NCBI RefSeq assembly: GCF_048403405.1
Contig: NZ_CP183131.1
Direction: 5' to 3' (one strand)
Source of the DNA: Escherichia coli
Lineage (GTDB): Bacteria > Pseudomonadota > Gammaproteobacteria > Enterobacterales > Enterobacteriaceae
DNA: 64,000 nucleotides
In this document: positions 16,966-33,369 of the stretch, one piece after another
Numbering within the stretch: the first letter of the stretch is position 1
Layout of the letters: each line of letters begins with the position of its first letter
Notes under the pieces: model-generated
Database searches by the model: none
Seen by the model: only the letters and a program-made list of their open reading frames with translations
Told to the model about the DNA's origin: nothing
Made by a program: the position numbers and the translations under genes

Positions 16966-17826
16966 ATGAAAAAGGCTTTAATCACCACCGTGGCTCTGGC
17001 TGTAGCAGCTCTATCTGGCTGTGCATCCACCAGCAGTTACGAACCCACAGCGTACAAAACCAATCACAGTCGCGCTTACAACATCGCGGAGGCCGGTGGC
17101 CTGGTAACAGGCATCCAAGACGCTTCTGTTCCGCGTGACAAGCTGGAGCGTCTGACCGACACCAAAACGTTTGGGGCAGCCTACGTGCTGTCTGGCTACA
17201 TGTCCCCTCAGCTCGGAATGACCGACTGGCAAGGTGGCTTGGTCAACCTTGCGAACTGGGCTATCGGCCCCAAACAGCATGGCGCTCGCAATAGCTTGAT
17301 CGCTTGGATGCCTGCTAACGAAGCAGTTTCACCGGCAGACGCTCAGGCCAAATTTCTTTCACATGTGAAAGTTTCCATTGAGTCAGCGCTGACTGATTTG
17401 GGTGCCAATTTCACGCTTCTGTATGACAAAGATGGTCGCCTAACCTATCAGTTCTACAAGAATGAATGGGGTTGCCCGACGTGGGTGAACGGACAAAGTA
17501 AGGTAGCTGACATGTGTTCCGTTAAGGTGAAAATCGTGGAGCCTCGCCTAGGGTCAGCTCCTAATTTTGTCTCTGGCGTTCAAGGTACAGCGTATGCCTT
17601 CACATCAGGCCATGAGACCGCATACAACTTTGTGAATGTCGGTAATGGGGCAGCAAGCCATGCTCCTCAGCAAGCGATCTACGCAGCTATTAGCAAACAG
17701 CTACCAGCTTGGGCCTACCTCTACCTTGCTCCAAAATCGGTTGAGCTGGATAATGGCGAAAAAGTTGCTTTCCCTTACCTTCTTGATCAGGGAAAAGCAG
17801 AGTTATTTGTTTACCCAGAAGCGTAA
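16966..17826 (+). CDS. lipoprotein (286 aa)
   Basis: Signal peptide with lipobox LSGC; RBS ACGGAGAA. Confidence 0.6.
   Translation: MKKALITTVALAVAALSGCASTSSYEPTAYKTNHSRAYNIAEAGGLVTGIQDASVPRDKLERLTDTKTFGAAYVLSGYMSPQLGMTDWQGGLVNLANWAIGPKQHGARNSLIAWMPANEAVSPADAQAKFLSHVKVSIESALTDLGANFTLLYDKDGRLTYQFYKNEWGCPTWVNGQSKVADMCSVKVKIVEPRLGSAPNFVSGVQGTAYAFTSGHETAYNFVNVGNGAASHAPQQAIYAAISKQLPAWAYLYLAPKSVELDNGEKVAFPYLLDQGKAELFVYPEA
17356..17371. promoter_or_regulatory. palindrome CTTTCACATGTGAAAG (parS-like), intragenic copy
   Basis: Read directly; inside the lipoprotein CDS. Confidence 0.5.
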
Positions 17827-20778: not shown

Positions 20779-21786
20779 TCAATTGTTACAGCAATCATTC
20801 CATCGCCAGATGGTGTAAATAGGGTCTTGCCCAATTGCCGGTATAGTTCGCGCCAGACCCCACGTAAGAGTGGATTCGCCAATTACGTGAGATGAGTTTG
20901 TCTCTGGAACCGGATGCAATAGCGTGAATTTGTACTGCGTTTTGGGTAGTGTTGGGCTAATAACACCTCTACACATAGCCTCAGAACCCATTGTCTTCCA
21001 CGCTAACCCCCGGCGATGCAAAGCAGCCAGAACCCTTGTGCTAAGAAGACTGCTATCGCGGATAACACCTTTTCCACCATTCTGGTTGCCACTAAATGGA
21101 TACAGGGTGCCCCATGAACCAGCACACCAGAAAAGCTGTTTTAAAGGTTTTCCAGCGGTTGATGAGACAGCATCAGCAGTACACGCAGCCGCCGCAATTG
21201 GGTTTGCTACTGCCGCCGCCTCTGGATTGGTAAAAAAAGCGAGCTCATCATTGTTCCAGGTCGGGTCGAGCTCCGACATGTACATGATGTCGAGATCCAT
21301 ATACCCATCAGCATTACAGGTCTGCTTAATAAATAAATCGAGCATCACCAACAGAGGAAACGCATAGTAGTGATAGTGCATAAAAGAACCATCACCACCA
21401 TCCATGTCTCCCATGCCATGATGCCCTTGGTTAGTCCTATCAAACGGGAACCTGACACCATTCAAGACAGATGAGCAGCCAGGCACTCTCTGAAATTCAA
21501 CAAGCCGTGCTGGCTCCCACATAGAAGTGGTGACTCCAGGCCGAGGGACCCCTAGATTATCCTCGCACATACACAGAGGGTTGCTTACGGCTTCACTCGG
21601 GAATGATCCGCCTCCACCACTTATAGGAACCCCTGCTACTTTGATGGGAAAAATACAGCTCCAGCAGATGTCAGTAATCAGTTTTCCGCCGATTACTTCC
21701 GCATTCTGGCACCCAGGGTCAGCCGATACCGAACGAACCCAAAAGACCGCGCTAACGGCAATGACCCGTAGAATTTTTTGCATCAT
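20779..21786 (-). CDS. traU: conjugal transfer pilus assembly protein TraU
   Basis: Signal peptide and Cys-containing TraU-like sequence; gene order; ORF track 20779..21858. Confidence 0.85.
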   Translation of the reverse strand: MMQKILRVIAVSAVFWVRSVSADPGCQNAEVIGGKLITDICWSCIFPIKVAGVPISGGGGSFPSEAVSNPLCMCEDNLGVPRPGVTTSMWEPARLVEFQRVPGCSSVLNGVRFPFDRTNQGHHGMGDMDGGDGSFMHYHYYAFPLLVMLDLFIKQTCNADGYMDLDIMYMSELDPTWNNDELAFFTNPEAAAVANPIAAAACTADAVSSTAGKPLKQLFWCAGSWGTLYPFSGNQNGGKGVIRDSSLLSTRVLAALHRRGLAWKTMGSEAMCRGVISPTLPKTQYKFTLLHPVPETNSSHVIGESTLTWGLARTIPAIGQDPIYTIWRWNDCCNN

Positions 21787-22454
21787 GGTAAGGCCTTTAC
21801 GTAATTCAAGTGTTTCTCCATGACAGCAGGCTTCCCGTGATAGAAACCTTGTTGCCATGACAGTCCAAGTAATTTGGCGCTCTCCCCCAATGGGAAGCTC
21901 TCCACCTGCTCAGCAATGAGCTGTATGCCTTTTCGGCGGCAGTGGAGGATGGCCGAGTAGTCTTCAAGCGACCGCAGTCTTCTCGCGTCAAACTTGCAAT
22001 AGTGCCAGTCATAACGACTCAGGCGCTCCAGCGAAGAGTTTTTGTCTCCATAGTCATCCAGCGCCAGCTCAACCCCTATTTCGGTAAGAGCCTCCCATCT
22101 CAATGCGAGAGAGGCATCCTGAATGCCCTCGGTAATCTCGATGACAAGCCGTGATGAGTGATTCTTAGCAATGTCGCGGACAACCCTCCACCACGCTTTG
22201 AAAATGACGTCTGATTGCAAAGTATGTTCAGAGACATTCAGAAAAAGAGCTGGGTACAGATCCAAGCAATAATGAAGGTTGTCCTGAATGAACCGTGCCA
22301 TCTCCATATCCACCAGCCCCCAATAAGGAGGTGATGACAGAGAGGATGGTGTAAGAACCCGGCCTTCGTCGTACCAACGAGCCAGTACCTCAGCAGCGAC
22401 AAACGAACCTGTGCCGACGTCTTTAATTGGTTGGAAAGCCGGGGCAAAAATCAT
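21783..22454 (-). CDS. stand-alone EAL-domain protein (putative c-di-GMP phosphodiesterase)
   Basis: EAL-like motifs EVLAR, N, EITE, DDYGD, KFD, AEQVES, QQGFYHGKP; start and stop overlap traW and traU. Confidence 0.7.
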   Translation of the reverse strand: MIFAPAFQPIKDVGTGSFVAAEVLARWYDEGRVLTPSSLSSPPYWGLVDMEMARFIQDNLHYCLDLYPALFLNVSEHTLQSDVIFKAWWRVVRDIAKNHSSRLVIEITEGIQDASLALRWEALTEIGVELALDDYGDKNSSLERLSRYDWHYCKFDARRLRSLEDYSAILHCRRKGIQLIAEQVESFPLGESAKLLGLSWQQGFYHGKPAVMEKHLNYVKALP

Positions 22455-23716
22455 TCACCGCCCTCCTCAGCAAGTTCGCGGACAACAAACTTCTTGCCTC
22501 TGGCAGTAATGACGCTCGGTGTGTGCTCCAGCTCGAACCGGGTAATCAGATCTGGCGTCAGCAGATATACCGGCGCGTCAAAGTTGTCGGTGACACTCTT
22601 GTAGGAATCCCAGCCTTTGTCTTTGTCGAACTCTGTGGCGATATAGGTAATCCGTTGTACGCCAGGTTCCTGCTTAATTTCAGGCAGCTTCTTGGCGAGC
22701 AGCTCCATTTGCTTTTTGTCCAGCGGGTCGAAAACTACGACCGCTTGGGTAAATGGCCGCGTTCCAGGCTTGCAAACTTCCTTCGGATCGCACAATGGGT
22801 TGATCACGTCACCCGCGTGAGCGAACACAGTGCCATCCGGAGTGCTGATGTCACTGGTGATCATGACGCTAGGGTCAATTTCTCGTGTTCGAGATTTTGG
22901 CGCTCTGGGCAGCTCATTGAAATTCTGCTTGGTCCAGAAGCGCTCTATAGCCTGTTTCTTCTTCTCTTCCCAGTCGATATTGGCAAGGCGTTTCTTGGCA
23001 ACATCAATAAGGTCTGGCTCACTGATTTTCTCCACCGGCCCCTTAACGCCGAGATCGCCTTTTTCTCCGTTATCCACTTCCCGAGCCAACCATACCGGGT
23101 CGGACAACCCGGAGACCTGGGCGACGACGTTTGGTTGTTCGCCAGGCAGCGGCTCATCCTCCAGCATCACAATCGTGGGAACGGCTGTGATGTTGTACGT
23201 TTTGAACAACGTAGGGTTGATGATGATGTTCGGCACTGGGTCTTTTTTGGCCGCGAGCGCCTGAATAGCTTTAACTCCCTGCCCCAAGTTCATTCCTTCC
23301 GGGATGCCACGGAACACAATTACAGAATCAGGCTGGCCTGACACCGCCGTTAGGACGTCATCTAACCCCTGTTCGCCAAGAGACAACGAGGCGAAAACCA
23401 GTATCCGATGGTCAGAGTAGATACCCTTTTCAGCCTGTTTCCGGTGCATCTCCTTGAGCGTTGGGTTAGTAGTTTGGAGCTGCTTGAAAAATGCCTTGGC
23501 TTCGGCCTGAGCCTCGTCCATGTGTTGGTTTTGCAACAGAGATGGCATTTCCATCTTCTGGGCCTTTTGGGCAATTTGCTTTCCTTTCTCAATAAGCGCC
23601 TTATCCTGCTCTGTGAGCGGAGACTCTTGAGCGTATGCCCCGCCAGCCACAGAGAATATCAACGCCACCAGAACGCTCTTAGAACAGGGGATATGCGCGG
23701 CCAATGATCTGATCAT
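22451..23716 (-). CDS. traW: TraW-like pilus assembly protein (long form, possibly TrbC-TraW fusion)
   Basis: Signal peptide; position between trhF and traU; 421 aa, longer than F-plasmid TraW. Confidence 0.7.
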   Translation of the reverse strand: MIRSLAAHIPCSKSVLVALIFSVAGGAYAQESPLTEQDKALIEKGKQIAQKAQKMEMPSLLQNQHMDEAQAEAKAFFKQLQTTNPTLKEMHRKQAEKGIYSDHRILVFASLSLGEQGLDDVLTAVSGQPDSVIVFRGIPEGMNLGQGVKAIQALAAKKDPVPNIIINPTLFKTYNITAVPTIVMLEDEPLPGEQPNVVAQVSGLSDPVWLAREVDNGEKGDLGVKGPVEKISEPDLIDVAKKRLANIDWEEKKKQAIERFWTKQNFNELPRAPKSRTREIDPSVMITSDISTPDGTVFAHAGDVINPLCDPKEVCKPGTRPFTQAVVVFDPLDKKQMELLAKKLPEIKQEPGVQRITYIATEFDKDKGWDSYKSVTDNFDAPVYLLTPDLITRFELEHTPSVITARGKKFVVRELAEEGGE

Positions 23717-24209
23717 TTTTCACAGTCCCCCAGTAACGTGAGTCGAAGCTGAATGGGCTTTTGCCCATAAACCAGTAGTTATTCTCTTTCAGCGTGGTCT
23801 TGCCGTAAAAGTGGCTCTCTGGCAGATGTAGTTTCCCTGCGAGCTGGAGCCCCTCTCCGACGACATCACCATTGACGGTGATCTTCCACTTATCGTTGAT
23901 CTCGACTTTATCCCCCGGCATACCGGTGAGGATTTTGACCATGCGAGTCCCGTCCTTGTAGAAAGGCTGCATGTTCTTGGCTTGGAAGGCGTAAACAGCT
24001 CCCCTCTCCAGAGTTTGGTCGTTCAGATCAATGAGGAAGAAGGTGTAACCCGGCAGGCACTTCTCCTGTTGTGGATCAATGCCAATACGGTAGCGGCTGG
24101 CAAAGGCCGCACCAGCAGCCCAAAGAACCAGTAGTGTCACACCGGCCTTAACCCCGAAGCGCTTCCAGGATTCCTTTTTGACGAAATACTTCTTGAGTGG
24201 AAAATTCAT
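23679..24209 (-). CDS. trhF: signal peptidase I-like conjugative peptidase (TraF/TrhF)
   Basis: S26 peptidase box SFDSRYWG; N-terminal TM; RBS GAGGTG. Confidence 0.8.
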   Translation of the reverse strand: MNFPLKKYFVKKESWKRFGVKAGVTLLVLWAAGAAFASRYRIGIDPQQEKCLPGYTFFLIDLNDQTLERGAVYAFQAKNMQPFYKDGTRMVKILTGMPGDKVEINDKWKITVNGDVVGEGLQLAGKLHLPESHFYGKTTLKENNYWFMGKSPFSFDSRYWGTVKNDQIIGRAYPLF

Positions 24210-24523
24210 TTCAGCACCTCATCAGGGAGGTACACGTCACTTGGAGCACCGACGACAGCACTTGCGTCAAGGACCAAATAACCTGCGTCTTTCAACTTCA
24301 AAATTGCGTCATTGGTCTTGACCATCAGTCTTTCAACTTCCTCCTGAGAGGCACCAGCGGGATACGCCGACGCCACTTTAGCGAAGTCAACCACGACCAC
24401 TGGCGGGGTTTGATTCAAACGCTGATGGATGCTTGCCGTTTGTTCGCTCATCACGTAGTAGCTACCGCCGAAGCCACCAGCGGCACCGAGAATGGCGGCG
24501 ATTGCGATTGATTTAATGTCCAT
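24206..24523 (-). CDS. TrbI-like inner-membrane conjugation protein
   Basis: N-terminal TM and ..YLVLDASAVVGAPSDV.. resembling F TrbI ..VILVSPAVVQGAPDIT.. Confidence 0.5.
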   Translation of the reverse strand: MDIKSIAIAAILGAAGGFGGSYYVMSEQTASIHQRLNQTPPVVVVDFAKVASAYPAGASQEEVERLMVKTNDAILKLKDAGYLVLDASAVVGAPSDVYLPDEVLK

Positions 24524-27837: not shown

Positions 27838-30800
27838 TTAGTTCATGGTAACAGCTTCGGATTTGCCACCAGAGTCATCGACCCCAACCAGAGAGATGGT
27901 CGGCATCGTTTCATAGGTGCCCTTGCTGATAGTCACTCGATCAGAGCTGATGCTCTGCAACTCACCGGCAATGGTCCATTCGTAGGACTTCATGCGGCCA
28001 TCGGTATCTTCGCAGTTCGCATAAACGATCCACGACCCAACGGTCTCTCGTGAGCTCAGGCTACATGCAGGCAACTTGTTCTCTGCCACATTGATGTTCA
28101 CCTCGCCCTCAGCTTCATGCCCCATTTCTGAGGTTATTTTCAGCTTGATGCTGTGCTCACCAGCGCCCAGAGTTGCTCTGCCGTAGTAACCGCTGCTTTC
28201 CAACGGCGTACCATCTACCGAGTAGACGCGAGTCGAAATACGGTCGCGTGGGTGGCCGCCAGAAATGTACGGTCGCAACAGCACATCCAGAGGCTCACGC
28301 TCGTATTTGTTCGAGCCAGAGTATTGCAGGTCGATAGCATAGGGCTCTGCCTGGCCGATCTTGAGCGGTTGCTCGATCACGGTTTCATGGCCGCGAGCAT
28401 CACGGACAGTCACCTTGATGTTGTAATCGCCCGGCTCATTGATCACAAAGGACCGGACAATATCCTGCCGCTGATCCTGAATCACTGCGTCTTCCGGCAA
28501 CTCCCACTCGTAGGTCGGTTCTTCCAGCTTGCCGTTGAAGGCAATTGGCCGCACTGACGCGGTGATCGTCGCAGGAGCCACGTCAGCGTTCTTCCTGACC
28601 TGCATTCCGAAGCTCGGCCATACATACTGCCACACGCGGGAGCGTAGGCTATGCGAGGCTTCTGCACCCTGATCTCGGTATCCTTCGATCCAGGTGGTGT
28701 ACTTCGTTTCTACAGTAGCCTGGTTGAGGTCAGTGTCCGAAGGCACGTACTCAGCAGTATCACCCTGCACAATTGAGCCATCAGGCAGCGTGAAGAACCC
28801 GTTCAGCTTCACGTCCATCCCACGGTAAGGCAGGCTGGTTTCGGCTTTGAACACATACTTCTTACCGGTCTCAATGACTCGCGGCCCTGTCACGTAAGGA
28901 CGGGGGGCCTTCACTGCTCGGAAGTCAACTGCCGTTTTCGCAACTTCATAGGCATAGCCGTCATCAGCCGGTGCAGTGGCAGAGCGCACACGAGCCCACA
29001 GGCGGTATCGGGTTTCTTCATCGCTCGAAAGCGTGATGCTATCCCCTGTCTGCGCGTAGGTTTTGCCACCGTCAGTAGACCACTCAACAATGGCATTGCC
29101 ACCGGAGATTGGCTCATCGTTCAACGTCAGGTTCGCTGTGTACTTGCCTTCACTTCCGACAAACAACGTGGTCGGGCCGATAACAGCAATATCAGGTTTG
29201 TCGTAAGCGACAACACTGACCGCTTCGGTGTACTTTTCCGCACCTGAGTTGACGTTCACCACCTTGGCCCGAACCTGGTACTCCCCCTTGTCGAAGGTCT
29301 TCACAAGCTGATACTTGTATCGATCTTCTGGGATGAACTGCTCCCAGGTTTTACCGTCGTCCTTACTGGTTTCCCACACAACCTGGCCGGTAGCCCGGAG
29401 ATCCTGACGGTCGTCCAAAGATAGCTTGAACACAGCAGTGAACGGAGCTTCACCAGACAACTTGCGAGCCTCCACGCCAGCACCGATGGCACCACCACGA
29501 AGCACTGTCAAGAAGGCAGGTCTGATAGACAACTCTGTGCGGTTGTAACCCTCAACAGGGCTTTCCAGAACAGCCTCAGCAGCGATACGGACGGAGGAAG
29601 TATCCACACCAGACAGGTCTACTGAGAACTGAGCTTCACCGTTCGATGCTTCCGCATAATCAGTGAGCGCAACCGTCTCGTTGTAGGCCTTTTGCTGGAT
29701 CAGGCGTACTTTCCACACCCCCATCGTGTTAGCGTCATAGTCACCATCAGGTTTGTACTGATCACGGATGAGAACCCTAACCGGCAATGCCTGGGTGTCA
29801 ATCGCGGTATCACCTTTAACTTCAACGATAGGACGGATACTGTCAGAAGGTGCAGAGATAGCCCGGTAGACAACCTCAGTCTTCACATCAGGCACCTTGT
29901 TGTAGGCCGCGTTCACCTTGTAGGTGGTCTCCTCCCACAACGCTCGCTCATCGGTATTGATGCGGCGATACACCTTATTGGTGGCACCCCATCCCGGAGT
30001 GAAGGTCTCAGACTCAAGAACATCAGAGTTGCGCGATATGGCAATATCCAGATCAGCTCGTTCAGAGTTGATAATGGCATCACCCAGGTAGTTACCTGTC
30101 ATCGGCACCAAGTAGATGTTGTCTTTGAAGTTGTAGTCGGAGGCTAGTTCAACGGTCGGAGCTGGTGGGTCAACCGCTTCGACATTGAAAGTCTCGTCGT
30201 TCAACGTCACCCGAGTGCCGTTACGGGTGAAAATACTTACCCGCCACCCCAGAGGGTGATCACCGTTCTCGGCCAGGGAACCTGACAACGAAGGAGATTC
30301 CGATAACGGGTCTTGGACCAGTCCATCGGGGATCTGCTGCCACTCGAACAGACAGGTGCGGCTTGCACTGCCAACAGCTTTGTTCGCGGCCTCGTTTTTC
30401 GCACGGTCAGCACTGAGAGTGATTGAACAATCAGGACCTTTGCTCTGCTTGAAGTTCACATCAAAGTCTTCAATGACGCGATTCACCTGAGCAATGTCAT
30501 CAATCGGGGTGTAACCAACAGAGCCATAGGCAGTAGTTACCGTCAGGTTCTGAGAGCCAGACCCAACTTTTACCTTGGAACCGTCACCACTGAACAGGTA
30601 CAGGCTGTATTCGACAGGTTGTTCACCAATGCTCACAGCCTGCCCCACCAGCCCGGCAACTTTCATCCCGTTGTTGTCCTGCGTAGTTTGTTCAGCCTCA
30701 TCCGGAGTTCTGTCCCATTGGAGCAAACACACCGGGTCACGAATTGGGTCTGCGGCCATAGCCACATCCTCTTTCGTGGTGAACCGGCAAGGCACACCCG

Positions 30801-33369
30801 ACTCTGGCAGGGCATAGATTTTCACCGGGTCAATAACCTGGCGAATTGTCCATGATTCAGCCGAGAGCTTGGCCGTCCCTTTCCAGGTATTGATGTCCAC
30901 AACCAAGATGGGTGAGTTCGGCGCGGAGGTCATGACAAGAAGACTGGAAGAGCCGACCACATCAGGAACAGCCGGTTTAACCGGAATGCTCAAACGACCA
31001 CCTGACGCACCGAAATCATGTTGGCTCATGATCCCCATTGTCTGGCCCGGCTCGATACGCACCCCATTCACCACCAGCGGCACTTTCGCATCAGAACGGA
31101 GGGTCGCAAACACGTCGTATGAACCTGTCACGACAGCACCATCACTGAGCGTCAGCGGCTTGGTCTCGATGATCCGCTTGCCATCTGCATGAACAAATTC
31201 ATGAGTGACAGCGGGGACCATAACCTTGCCATCCATCCCATCCGCCAGCATCACCTGACGCGGTTTGTACTCGAAGCCAACCGCCTTTTGAACCGCGTTG
31301 CCTTGTGCGTCCTCACCGGAAACAGTCAGCGTGTAAGATTCCCCTTCCTTCAAAGACGGGAACATTACCGGGTACTCAAGGCGGAATCGACCTTTCGACT
31401 CCTCACGCCAAGACAACTGCACCTTGTCATCGGCTGGGCCTCCGACGAGGGCAATAGAGGTCAGCTTAGGACTCGGGTCGGCAGTATCAGTCAAGGTGAT
31501 TACAACATCATCCAAAGACTGGATTGGTGCTCCATCACTGATCGATACGGTTAGTGTCGGCGCTGAATTATCTATGCTCATAGCATATTGGGAGCCAGTG
31601 AATACCTGCTTAACCTCATTACCGAAAGCATCTTTAGCTACGAGAGATATGCCGGTATATGTGCCCTCTGACAGATTCTCAGCAGAAAATGTGAAAAACC
31701 AATCATTTGTGCTACTACGAAGAACTTCAGTACGAGACAACGGACGTTCTTCGCCAGTCGAGGTTATCGCAGACGCACTTGAGTTGTTAGAAATAACCCA
31801 CTGGTTAACACCCCAACCGTCAAATGAATCAGGCTCACGGAAATGAGCTTTAAAAATCCGCCCATTTCGTTCTAACCCAGCAATTTCAGGAGGGTTAAGG
31901 TCATAGCAGAACGTTGCCCCAATCCGATCAGACGGAAGTTCAGGCTTCCCTTCCGGTCGAGACCAATATCCAGGCCATGAACATGAGCGCCCACTGAACG
32001 ATATATCCGTATCCACTTCTGCATAAGAAGCATTTGCCGGAATTTTAGTAGTAGGCAACCAAGATCCCCATAACTCCTGAGCGTAAGGTCTCGGCTCAAC
32101 ATGAAATCTCAGTTTTTTATAATGGTTAACTGAGCTCATATTAATGGTTTCACCGCGGACCCACTGACCATCATCCCTAAGATATTCAACATACTTACCG
32201 ATGGGAGCCAAGCTAACCGATGGATCAGCTTTCACACTGACGGATGTATTACCAAGAGAGTTCATAACCCAGTCGTAAATAATAAACGACTTAGTTTTTG
32301 TCCCATGTTGCTGGAATACATCAGCTTGCGTCTGCCGATAATCATATGTACCGTCTTCGGCAATGATATTGCCTTCAATACAGTTTTTATAATCACACCA
32401 GTTACCGCTTTGAGCACCGTAAGGTGAAGAAGGATAGGAGTTTGTTTTGGGTATCCGGTAGAGCACCCTGTAGGTATCGGAATAAATGGTCATTCCGTTC
32501 TGATAAGGCGCAAAACCTGATAGGGCCTGACCATTAACCTTAAAAGTTGAGGCCTGCGGGTTCTTAGGGTCATACACTGCTACTGGCTCAGGATTCTCTC
32601 CAGACTTTGCACCTACTGAATCCCAAGCAATAGGATAGGCTATTGACCCTTTGTTCCCTGCTTTATCCAGGGCCTCGAAATGAAGCGTATATAGATCCTC
32701 CCCATTAGGGAACACAGTGCTCCAGTTCAACAACTGGCCTTGGCCGTTGGCGTAATTAACCGAGACAACAGGACTCCTCTTGCCTTTGCTATCTACAGCA
32801 TACGCCTGTATAGAGGAAACCGAAGAACCGGCATCAGATGCAGACACATCTATACCTGAAAATCGGTTAGGACCTCGCAGTAGCGTTCCATCAGAAAGCG
32901 CCCGGTTCCATTCCCCTTTTACTGTCACGTTTGCCAAACTTGGCGCTGTCGTATCGACTTGAAGCGGGTATTCATCAGTCTGAACGGAACTTCCGTCTGA
33001 CGCCAGTATTTCGGCCCTTAGTTTGTAGACTCCCTCGGAAGGAGCCGGTAGTTGAAGTTCCGCACCATAGTAGGATTTTCCACCCACTGTGATGCGATCA
33101 GTAGCCCCAAGAAGGTGGCTGGTCGCTGTCGAAACCACTGTTCCATCCGACCGAATCACCGAAATCTTTACCTTTCGGTCGATACCGGCACTCAAGGCAA
33201 ACGAGATATTGCCCGTTGGGTTGGCATAGTTGGCATTCGGAGTCAGAGACCGTTGCGTACCATCTGGAGCCTTAAAGGTGTATTCCAGCAGCTCTGCATG
33301 AGCAGCACCAGCGGTAAGAACCGCCAGAGCCCCAAGCATCGCCGGAATTTTAGGCTTGAAATTGATCAT
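27838..33369 (-). CDS. giant secreted repetitive protein (1843 aa) in the T4SS cluster
   Basis: ORF track 27838..33405; start moved to MINFKP (RBS TGGAGAA); signal peptide ..LTAGAAHA; very long G/T/S/V-rich sequence; Ig-like fold is inference only. Confidence 0.7.
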   Translation of the reverse strand: MINFKPKIPAMLGALAVLTAGAAHAELLEYTFKAPDGTQRSLTPNANYANPTGNISFALSAGIDRKVKISVIRSDGTVVSTATSHLLGATDRITVGGKSYYGAELQLPAPSEGVYKLRAEILASDGSSVQTDEYPLQVDTTAPSLANVTVKGEWNRALSDGTLLRGPNRFSGIDVSASDAGSSVSSIQAYAVDSKGKRSPVVSVNYANGQGQLLNWSTVFPNGEDLYTLHFEALDKAGNKGSIAYPIAWDSVGAKSGENPEPVAVYDPKNPQASTFKVNGQALSGFAPYQNGMTIYSDTYRVLYRIPKTNSYPSSPYGAQSGNWCDYKNCIEGNIIAEDGTYDYRQTQADVFQQHGTKTKSFIIYDWVMNSLGNTSVSVKADPSVSLAPIGKYVEYLRDDGQWVRGETINMSSVNHYKKLRFHVEPRPYAQELWGSWLPTTKIPANASYAEVDTDISFSGRSCSWPGYWSRPEGKPELPSDRIGATFCYDLNPPEIAGLERNGRIFKAHFREPDSFDGWGVNQWVISNNSSASAITSTGEERPLSRTEVLRSSTNDWFFTFSAENLSEGTYTGISLVAKDAFGNEVKQVFTGSQYAMSIDNSAPTLTVSISDGAPIQSLDDVVITLTDTADPSPKLTSIALVGGPADDKVQLSWREESKGRFRLEYPVMFPSLKEGESYTLTVSGEDAQGNAVQKAVGFEYKPRQVMLADGMDGKVMVPAVTHEFVHADGKRIIETKPLTLSDGAVVTGSYDVFATLRSDAKVPLVVNGVRIEPGQTMGIMSQHDFGASGGRLSIPVKPAVPDVVGSSSLLVMTSAPNSPILVVDINTWKGTAKLSAESWTIRQVIDPVKIYALPESGVPCRFTTKEDVAMAADPIRDPVCLLQWDRTPDEAEQTTQDNNGMKVAGLVGQAVSIGEQPVEYSLYLFSGDGSKVKVGSGSQNLTVTTAYGSVGYTPIDDIAQVNRVIEDFDVNFKQSKGPDCSITLSADRAKNEAANKAVGSASRTCLFEWQQIPDGLVQDPLSESPSLSGSLAENGDHPLGWRVSIFTRNGTRVTLNDETFNVEAVDPPAPTVELASDYNFKDNIYLVPMTGNYLGDAIINSERADLDIAISRNSDVLESETFTPGWGATNKVYRRINTDERALWEETTYKVNAAYNKVPDVKTEVVYRAISAPSDSIRPIVEVKGDTAIDTQALPVRVLIRDQYKPDGDYDANTMGVWKVRLIQQKAYNETVALTDYAEASNGEAQFSVDLSGVDTSSVRIAAEAVLESPVEGYNRTELSIRPAFLTVLRGGAIGAGVEARKLSGEAPFTAVFKLSLDDRQDLRATGQVVWETSKDDGKTWEQFIPEDRYKYQLVKTFDKGEYQVRAKVVNVNSGAEKYTEAVSVVAYDKPDIAVIGPTTLFVGSEGKYTANLTLNDEPISGGNAIVEWSTDGGKTYAQTGDSITLSSDEETRYRLWARVRSATAPADDGYAYEVAKTAVDFRAVKAPRPYVTGPRVIETGKKYVFKAETSLPYRGMDVKLNGFFTLPDGSIVQGDTAEYVPSDTDLNQATVETKYTTWIEGYRDQGAEASHSLRSRVWQYVWPSFGMQVRKNADVAPATITASVRPIAFNGKLEEPTYEWELPEDAVIQDQRQDIVRSFVINEPGDYNIKVTVRDARGHETVIEQPLKIGQAEPYAIDLQYSGSNKYEREPLDVLLRPYISGGHPRDRISTRVYSVDGTPLESSGYYGRATLGAGEHSIKLKITSEMGHEAEGEVNINVAENKLPACSLSSRETVGSWIVYANCEDTDGRMKSYEWTIAGELQSISSDRVTISKGTYETMPTISLVGVDDSGGKSEAVTMN

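What the first reader, a model, noticed from the sequence alone, without database searches (positions are those of the whole stretch)
22451..23716. Long-form TraW, probably a TrbC-TraW fusion
The protein is 421 aa, about twice F-plasmid TraW, with a signal peptide and an extended N-terminal region. In IncHI plasmids TrhW is a fusion of TrbC-like and TraW-like domains, and the same could hold here, which would explain the absence of a separate trbC.
Basis: established knowledge. Interest (0 to 1): 0.3.

Follow-up and report, generated by a model that had tools for sequence, protein, structure and literature searches.

The report
Fused TrbC–TraW pilus assembly protein
This gene on an IncC resistance plasmid encodes one periplasmic protein that joins two F-type pilus-assembly factors, TrbC and TraW, which the classical F plasmid makes separately; the fusion is real, widespread and already described, so the finding is correct but ordinary.

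Summary
The ORF is there as described: window 22451..23716, minus strand, 421 aa. The window is the conserved backbone of IncC (IncA/C2) plasmids, 100% identical over this region to hundreds of them.

- Residues ~9-220 are TrbC-like. Pfam TrbC_Ftype gives 67.8 bits, equal to F TrbC itself. Identity to F TrbC is 28%, and the match includes its signal peptide.
- Residues 221-421 are TraW-like. TIGR02743 matches at E 5e-18 over model positions 21-201/202. Identity to F TraW is 28%, starting exactly at mature TraW residue 20.
- The protein is colinear with R27 TrhW (E 2e-38).
- No other ORF in the window, in the second tra cluster, or by tblastn anywhere on IncC plasmids resembles TrbC.
- 119 of 120 homologue clusters carry both modules in the same order (median 418 aa).

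The fusion is already noted for R27, for Rts1 (where the gene is essential) and in reviews. F TraW and TrbC are reported to interact through the ends that are joined here.

One small addition: predicted structures suggest that the TraW C-terminal subdomain, like the TrbC module, has a thioredoxin-like fold without CXXC.

Verdict: supported, already known, low interest.

The parts
22451..23716 (-). traW/trhW-type CDS encoding the fused TrbC-TraW protein (421 aa plus stop)
   Evidence: ORF. Identical CDS annotated in IncC plasmids. Homologues.
23630..23716 (-). Residues 1-29: predicted Sec signal peptide (MIRSLAAHIPCSKSVLVALIFSVAGGAYA|QE)
   Evidence: Read directly from the sequence (n-, h- and c-regions, AXA rule). 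Aligns to the F TrbC N-terminus, residues 1-21. PRK13730 match starts at residue 16. Low pLDDT with a helix at 13-26. Not run through a dedicated predictor.
23417..23629 (-). Residues 30-100: helical, poorly conserved N-terminal region of the TrbC part
   Evidence: Aligns to F TrbC residues ~22-90. AF2 helices at 36-54, 64-83 and 85-96, with pLDDT 45-70.
23057..23416 (-). Residues 101-220: TrbC_Ftype module. Thioredoxin-like fold without CXXC, carrying the conserved motifs F108-x-S110-x-S112-x-G114 and V179-P180.
   Evidence: PF09673 E 1e-18. TIGR02742 E 1e-13. An HMM of this module retrieves stand-alone TrbC of F (E 2.5e-9) and of an Acinetobacter plasmid (E 7.8e-16). Invariant columns. No Cys in the module and no CXXC in any of 120 homologues. 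Weak thioredoxin matches. pLDDT 77-93.
22454..23056 (-). Residues 221-421: TraW module, equivalent to mature F TraW from residue D20 (DLG...) to its C-terminus. It has no signal peptide of its own.
   Evidence: TIGR02743 at residues 221-414 against model 21-201/202, E 4.9e-18. BLASTP to F TraW residues 20-143, E 1e-12. Alignment A2 with F TraW and R27 TrhW over the full length. An HMM of this module retrieves stand-alone TraW of F (E 1.7e-18) and of Acinetobacter (E 2.6e-24). Pfam TraW_N (the signal-peptide region of F TraW) is absent here and present in F TraW.
22472..22762 (-). Residues 319-415: C-terminal subdomain of the TraW module, predicted thioredoxin-like beta-alpha-beta-alpha-beta-alpha-beta-beta fold without CXXC. 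F329-D330-P331 sits at the CXXC position and an invariant P400 in the cis-Pro-loop position.
22760..22792 (-). Residues 309-319: clade-specific insertion CDPKEVCKPGT with two cysteines (possible disulfide loop)
   Evidence: Present only in the close IncC-like homologues. Absent from most family members, F TraW and R27 TrhW in alignment A2. Cysteine positions 11, 309 and 315.
23679..24209 (-). trhF, S26-family signal peptidase gene immediately upstream, overlapping the traW start by 38 nt (context)
   Evidence: PF10502 E 5e-18. Annotation.
21783..22454 (-). EAL-domain gene (vcrx082 of pVCR94) immediately downstream, with an ATGA overlap onto the traW stop (context)
   Evidence: PF00563 E 2e-23. 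Overlap read. Operon description in PMC4542580.
20779..21783 (-). traU, the next F-specific pilus assembly gene (context)
   Evidence: PF06834 E 3e-98. PGAP coordinates.

Best explanation
The gene is the IncC plasmid traW (trhW-type) gene. It encodes one secreted periplasmic polypeptide made of three parts in order: a Sec signal peptide, a complete TrbC-type module, and a complete mature TraW module.
- The TrbC module is a helical N-region followed by a redox-inactive thioredoxin-like domain.
- The TraW module is joined at the position where F TraW would be cleaved from its own signal peptide.

The protein works as an F-type (MPF_F) pilus assembly and extension factor within the periplasmic TraF/TraH/TraU/TraW/TrbC group. 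The covalent link replaces the non-covalent contact between the C-terminal part of TrbC and the N-terminal part of TraW that F-like plasmids need for conjugation. This is why IncC plasmids have no separate trbC.

What is shown and what is inferred:
- Shown here: the ORF, both homologies, colinearity with R27 TrhW, conservation of the fusion, absence of a second trbC, absence of CXXC, and the operon context.
- Inferred from the literature on F, pED208, R27 and Rts1: periplasmic location, a role in pilus assembly and DNA transfer, essentiality, and the TrbC-TraW contact.
For: Domain architecture
- TrbC_Ftype Pfam match at residues 107-230 scores above the gathering threshold (67.8 bits). F TrbC scores 67.5 bits against the same model.
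- TraW TIGR02743 matches residues 221-414 across model positions 21-201/202.
- BLASTP: F TrbC 1-169 aligns with residues 9-185 (E 4e-9); F TraW 20-143 aligns with residues 221-345 (E 1e-12); R27 TrhW 184-487 aligns with residues 96-417 (E 2e-38).
- HMMs built from each half of the fused family retrieve the stand-alone TrbC and TraW of F and of an Acinetobacter MPF_F plasmid.

Conservation
- 119 of 120 homologue clusters (39-99% identity) carry both modules in N-to-C order, median 418 aa.

No other trbC
- Window six-frame phmmer, HMM search including the traFHG region of an IncC plasmid, and one tblastn place in each IncC record listed.

Context
- Gene order is dsbC-traC-orf-trhF-traW-EAL-traU-traN, on a plasmid typed IncC/MOBH/MPF_F.
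- This operon is described as AcaCD-dependent mpf2a in PMC4542580.

Literature
- Rts1 Orf216 (TraW, 416 aa) has TrbC_F plus TraW domains, and its deletion abolishes transfer (PMC10838148).
- In some systems TraW and TrbC are one polypeptide, and the TraW NTD-TrbC CTD interaction is needed for conjugation (PMC7555446 citing Shala-Lawrence 2018).
- TrbC has a thioredoxin fold without CXXC (bioRxiv 10.1101/2023.12.05.570194).
Against: - Scores against the NCBIfam 'equivalog' models are far below their curated cut-offs: TraW 65.6 against 174.75, TrbC 51 against 66.45. Each half is therefore a distant relative (~28% identity), not an orthologue-grade match.
- No experiment on the IncC protein itself was found in the searched literature.
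- Whether the polypeptide stays intact in the periplasm is untested.
- In split systems the gene order is traW-traU-trbC, so the fusion is not a simple read-through of neighbours. Its origin is unexplained.
Confidence: 0.9

Rival explanations
1. The fused precursor is cut in the periplasm at the glycine-rich junction (G217-x-x-G220-D-L-G223-x-x-G226-P), perhaps by the co-encoded S26 peptidase TrhF. This would give separate TrbC and TraW proteins, so the system would work exactly like F.
For: The TraW part starts precisely at the residue (DLG) that is the mature N-terminus of F TraW. The junction glycines are invariant or nearly so. An S26 peptidase gene overlaps the start of the gene.
Against: The junction has no signal-peptide-like hydrophobic core or AXA site. 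The same S26 peptidase gene precedes traW in an Acinetobacter plasmid whose TraW and TrbC are separate, so its presence does not track with the fusion. AF2 places the junction in a confident beta-strand (220-224, pLDDT >90), not in an exposed linker. No report of processing was found.
Confidence: 0.06
2. It is an annotation or sequencing artefact: two adjacent genes, trbC and traW, merged by a frameshift or a lost stop codon in this record.
For: None beyond the unusual length relative to F TraW.
Against: The same uninterrupted ORF is found at 95-100% identity in roughly 770 plasmid records. The two-module architecture is kept in 119 of 120 homologue clusters down to 39% identity. In split systems trbC is not adjacent to traW.
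Confidence: 0.01
3. The N-terminal half is an active thiol-disulfide oxidoreductase (TrbB- or DsbC-like) fused to TraW, rather than a TrbC-type scaffold.
For: Fold-level and weak sequence matches are to thioredoxin-family oxidoreductases.
Against: The mature TrbC-like module has no cysteine, and no CXXC occurs in this module in any of 120 homologues. The best family match is TrbC_Ftype, not a redox-active family. The operon already has a DsbC-family gene.
Confidence: 0.02

Closest known systems
TrhW of IncHI1 plasmid R27 (WP_010892299.1, 502 aa)
   Same: Same two-module order (TrbC_Ftype, then TraW). Colinear alignment over residues 96-417 against 184-487 (28% identity, E 2e-38). Same gene neighbourhood, trhF-trhW-trhU-trhN. 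Same MOBH/MPF_F type of transfer system.
   Different: R27 TrhW is 81 aa longer, mostly in the poorly conserved region before the TrbC module. Identity is only 28%. R27 has no EAL gene between trhW and trhU.
TraW (Orf216) of IncT plasmid Rts1, 416 aa
   Same: Described as containing a TrbC_F-type domain plus a TraW domain. Lies between trhF and traU. Deletion abolishes conjugation (PMC10838148).
   Different: Not compared directly here. The paper reports only ~26% identity to the SXT, R27 and F counterparts, so it is likely as distant from the IncC protein.
F plasmid TrbC (212 aa) and TraW (210 aa), separate proteins
   Same: Each half is homologous to one of them. The summed length is 422 aa against 421 aa. 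Both are periplasmic pilus-assembly factors of the MPF_F system. Their reported contact (TrbC C-terminal part with TraW N-terminal part) corresponds to the ends joined here.
   Different: F has two genes, in the order traW-traU-trbC, each with its own signal peptide. The fused form has one signal peptide and TrbC comes first. Identity is ~28%. In F and pED208, TraW is class I (required) and TrbC class II (contributory). The fusion makes the two inseparable genetically.
Redox-inactive thioredoxin-fold F-specific proteins (TraF, TrbC)
   Same: The TrbC module lacks CXXC, as reported for F TrbC and TraF. The predicted TraW C-terminal subdomain also gives almost only thioredoxin-fold matches.
   Different: TraW is not listed among the thioredoxin-fold Tra proteins in that preprint. 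An earlier profile-profile study did call the TraW, TraU, TraF and TrbC profiles homologous (PMC4027160).

Membership tests
TrbC_Ftype (Pfam PF09673; F-type pilin assembly protein TrbC) | Sequence match to the family model above the curated gathering score | tested here: met
   67.8 bits against a cut-off of 24.2, E 1e-18, residues 107-230, model 1-110/111. F TrbC control scores 67.5 bits.
TrbC_Ftype (NCBIfam TIGR02742 / PRK13730, equivalog-level F TrbC) | Score above the equivalog cut-off, meaning the same protein as F TrbC | tested here: not met
   TIGR02742: 51.0 bits against 66.45. PRK13730: 23.6 bits against 333. It is a homologous module, not a stand-alone TrbC equivalog.
TrbC_Ftype | N-terminal Sec signal peptide / periplasmic protein | tested here: inconclusive
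   The N-terminus reads as a canonical signal peptide with an AYA|Q site and aligns to the processed N-terminus of F TrbC. No predictor or experiment was available.
TrbC_Ftype | Thioredoxin-like fold lacking the CXXC active site | tested here: met
   No Cys in residues 30-308 and no CXXC in 120 homologues. Weak thioredoxin matches to residues 118-194. Foldseek hits for the full model are almost all thioredoxin-fold.
TraW (NCBIfam TIGR02743, type-F conjugative transfer system protein TraW) | Homology across the whole mature TraW | tested here: met
   Residues 221-414 against model 21-201/202, E 4.9e-18. Full-length alignment with F TraW and R27 TrhW. A C-half HMM retrieves F TraW (E 1.7e-18) and Acinetobacter TraW (E 2.6e-24, full length).
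TraW (NCBIfam TIGR02743) | Score above the equivalog cut-off | tested here: not met
   65.6 bits against a cut-off of 174.75. This is why PGAP names the protein after its TrbC module only.
TraW (F-like, stand-alone) | Own N-terminal signal peptide (Pfam TraW_N PF12477) | tested here: not met
   No PF12477 match at E <= 1; F TraW matches it at E 3e-11. The TrbC part occupies that position.
TrhW-type fused TrbC-TraW proteins of MPF_F systems (R27, Rts1) | Both modules in one ORF, TrbC first, located between the S26 peptidase gene (trhF) and traU | tested here: met
   119 of 120 homologues have both modules in this order.
TrhW-type fused TrbC-TraW proteins | Required for pilus assembly and conjugative transfer | not testable with these tools
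   Shown for Rts1 Orf216 and for F/pED208 TraW and TrbC. No experiment on the IncC protein was found.

The most novel reading that the evidence does not exclude
Probability: 0.45. Interest if true: 0.25.

Novelty: already known. Interest (0 to 1): 0.1.

Why it matters
For annotation: the protein is named 'TrbC family' by PGAP and 'TraW' by submitters, and both are half right. Screens that score plasmids for the presence or absence of trbC or traW will miscount IncC, IncHI, IncT and related elements unless the fusion is recognised.

For biology: the natural fusion is independent evidence that TrbC and TraW act as one unit in F-type pilus assembly, and it gives a ready-made single-chain construct for structural work on that pair. 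No structure of either protein was found in the PDB by sequence. None of this is new in principle.

Tried and rejected
- PDB sequence searches with the single protein and with a 42-sequence profile found no solved TraW or TrbC relative. They returned only chance or weak thioredoxin-fold hits at E >= 0.08.
- I tested whether the small ORF between traC and trhF (orf105) is the counterpart of F TrbI, which holds that position in F. There is no BLASTP similarity and no Pfam or NCBIfam hit.
- I looked for an explicit statement in open-access papers that the IncC or SXT TraW is a TrbC fusion. I found the statement only for Rts1 and for 'some systems'. The IncC papers simply call the gene traW.
- From memory, Lawley et al. 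2003 (FEMS Microbiol Lett 224:1) notes the TrbC-TraW fusion in R27. That paper was not among the open-access search results and I did not try to retrieve it, so this is unverified.
- One literature query was rejected for syntax.
- The large representative-protein search and the metagenome and genome scans were not used. The answer did not need them.

Full report
OBSERVATION

The ORF exists exactly as described: window 22451..23716, minus strand, ATG to TGA, 421 aa.
- An SD-like GGGGGA lies 9 nt upstream of the ATG, and the start lies 38 nt inside the upstream S26-peptidase gene.
- The stop overlaps the ATG of the downstream gene as ATGA. This is the usual picture of a tightly packed, translationally coupled transfer operon.
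- The N-terminus (MIRSLAAHIPCSKSVLVALIFSVAGGAYA|QE) reads as a Sec signal peptide. It aligns with the N-terminus of F TrbC. I had no dedicated predictor, so this is read directly from the sequence.

WHERE THE WINDOW COMES FROM

The 3.9 kb around the gene is 100% identical to many plasmids of Klebsiella, Escherichia, Salmonella, Proteus, Vibrio and others.
- 845 plasmid records match, and 840 of them are typed conjugative.
- 94 E. coli genomes match, almost always on plasmids.
- The two records examined are typed IncC / MOBH / MPF_F.
- The first 49 kb of the window is colinear with pT212, with 235 mismatches.

On the minus strand the gene order is traA, a 1843-aa Ig-like gene, dsbC, traC, orf105, trhF (S26 peptidase), this gene, an EAL-domain gene, traU, traN. 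[quoted passage not shown]

WHAT THE PROTEIN IS

N-terminal half (TrbC-like):
- Pfam places TrbC_Ftype (PF09673) at residues 107-230, E 1e-18, 67.8 bits against a gathering score of 24.2. As a control, F TrbC itself scores 67.5 bits on the same model.
- NCBIfam adds TrbC models at residues 105-191 (TIGR02742, E 1e-13) and 16-184 (PRK13730).

C-terminal half (TraW-like):
- NCBIfam places TraW (TIGR02743) at residues 221-414 against model positions 21-201 of 202, E 4.9e-18.
- The scores against the NCBIfam 'equivalog' models are well below their cut-offs. This is why PGAP names the protein only 'TrbC family' while submitters call it TraW.
- Pfam has no model for the body of TraW, only TraW_N. 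That model covers the signal-peptide region of F TraW and is absent here.

Pairwise BLASTP agrees:

| Comparison | Residues in this protein | Residues in the other | Identity | E-value |
|---|---|---|---|---|
| F TrbC | 9-185 | 1-169 | 28% | 4e-9 |
| F TraW | 221-345 | 20-143 | 28% | 1e-12 |
| R27 TrhW | 96-417 | 184-487 (colinear) | 28% | 2e-38 |

- A multiple alignment of the C-halves with F TraW and R27 TrhW extends the TraW homology to the C-terminal motif (V/T)P(S/A)x(I/V)(T/S)A...F.
- The TraW part begins at D221-L-G. This is exactly the residue (D20-L-G) that follows the signal peptide of F TraW.

The anatomy is therefore: signal peptide, whole TrbC, mature TraW. That is 421 aa against 212 + 210 aa in F.

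IS THERE ANOTHER trbC?

No.
- Against all 820 six-frame ORFs (>= 40 aa) of the window, F TrbC and F TraW each hit only this ORF (E 2e-7 and 9e-9). The next best hits have E > 0.8.
- HMMs built from each half of the fused family find nothing else in the window or in the 50-kb stretch of an IncC plasmid that holds traF-traH-traG.
- The same HMMs do retrieve the stand-alone TrbC and TraW of F and of an Acinetobacter MPF_F plasmid, which shows that the test has power.
- tblastn of the N-half finds one place in each IncC record listed.

HOW GENERAL IS THE FUSION?

- The homologue search returned 151 clusters. Nearly all are 390-450 aa and cover more than 90% of the query, down to 39% identity. They come from Aeromonas, Vibrio, Photorhabdus, Marinobacter, Acidovorax, sulfur-oxidising symbionts and many metagenomes.
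- 119 of the 120 listed carry both modules in the order TrbC then TraW, median 418 aa. The exception is a chimeric or truncated protein.
- A Rhodanobacter plasmid has traC-orf-S26-fused gene (425 aa)-csrA-traU.
- An Acinetobacter MOBF/MPF_F plasmid has the split form, traC-orf-S26-traW-traU-trbC-traN, as in F.

The fused form is therefore an old, stable architecture. It is not a read-through of neighbours, because trbC lies beyond traU in the split systems.

STRUCTURE

- AlphaFold2 with a 42-sequence alignment gives a confident model for residues 101-420 (pLDDT mostly 80-95). The first 100 residues are low-confidence helices.
- No solved structure is related by sequence.
- Foldseek of the whole model finds almost only thioredoxin-fold proteins, weakly.
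- Profile comparison of the TrbC module with the TraW C-subdomain gives a local match of the segment around the conserved proline, residues 160-190 against 380-410. The hhalign E-value is 5e-4 but the probability is only 22-33%. The two HMMs also cross-hit each other's segment.
- The mature protein has only two cysteines, C309 and C315, both inside a clade-specific insertion. No homologue has CXXC in the TrbC module.

The protein therefore probably contains two redox-inactive thioredoxin-like modules. For TrbC this is stated in the literature. For TraW it is not stated there, but Guglielmini et al. 2014 already found the TraW, TraU, TraF and TrbC profiles homologous (PMC4027160).

MECHANISM

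Inferred from the families involved:
- The protein is exported by Sec and stays in the periplasm.
- It acts with TraF, TraH and TraU in extension of the F-type pilus and in DNA transfer.
- In F and pED208, TraW is required and TrbC contributes strongly.
- The TraW N-terminal part and the TrbC C-terminal part must interact for conjugation, and the single-polypeptide forms were already used as an argument for this (PMC7555446 citing Shala-Lawrence et al. 2018). The fusion joins exactly those two ends.

Not shown for the IncC protein: its localisation, whether it stays intact, and its requirement for transfer.

RIVALS

- Processing at the glycine-rich junction, possibly by TrhF, cannot be excluded. 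It has no support: there is no cleavage-site features, the junction is modelled as a confident strand, and the same peptidase gene is present in a split system.
- A sequencing artefact is excluded by the conservation of the fused ORF.
- An active oxidoreductase is excluded by the absence of cysteines in the module.

COMPARISON AND NOVELTY

The protein belongs with the TrhW-type fused TrbC-TraW proteins of R27 and Rts1. Each half is a distant homologue (~28% identity) of F TrbC and F TraW, but neither reaches the equivalog level.

The fusion is already known and already annotated, if inconsistently. The finding is correct but ordinary.

The only mildly new point is the predicted thioredoxin-like fold of the TraW C-terminal subdomain. 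It rests on predictions alone.

Noticed in passing
window 21783..22454 (-); also L007 4908..5111: A 223-aa stand-alone EAL-domain gene (PF00563, E 2e-23) sits between traW and traU, with an ATGA overlap onto the traW stop. It is vcrx082 of pVCR94. By eye all EAL signature motifs are present (EVL, N in LFLNVS, EITE, DDYG, KFD, EQVE, QG), so it may be an active c-di-GMP phosphodiesterase co-expressed with the pilus genes. In a Rhodanobacter plasmid with the same fused gene, the same slot holds a csrA gene instead. The slot between traW and traU seems to collect small regulators.
   Followed up: partly
window 24206..24523 (-): A 105-aa ORF between traC and trhF (vcrx079 of pVCR94) has a hydrophobic N-terminus. 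It has no Pfam or NCBIfam match and no BLASTP similarity to F TrbI, which occupies the equivalent position after traC in F. Small unnamed ORFs occupy the same slot in the Acinetobacter and Rhodanobacter plasmids (L006 1353..1769, L007 2744..3127).
   Followed up: partly
window 22760..22792 (-), residues 309-319 of the protein: An 11-residue insertion, CDPKEVCKPGT, carries the only two cysteines of the mature protein. It is found only in the IncC-like clade and is absent from most homologues, F TraW and R27 TrhW. It may be a disulfide-bonded surface loop, and the operon encodes a DsbC-family protein.
   Followed up: no
window 20779..21858 (-): The mechanical TraU ORF (359 aa) starts 75 nt upstream of the PGAP start (20779..21783, 334 aa) and would overlap the EAL gene. 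The shorter start abuts the EAL gene's end instead: the EAL CDS ends at 21783, where the traU CDS begins.
   Followed up: no
window 27838..33369 (-): A very large (1843 aa) Ig-like-domain protein gene is inserted between traA and dsbC in the transfer region. R27 also carries an Ig-like-domain gene (L005 48925 onward) and a 4.3-kb 'RSP' gene next to trhF.
   Followed up: no
window 16966..17826 (+): A 286-aa ORF downstream of traN matches the position and length given for the surface-exclusion gene sfx of IncC plasmids (PMC11493245). PGAP annotates it only as a hypothetical protein.
   Followed up: no
[not shown]
   Followed up: partly
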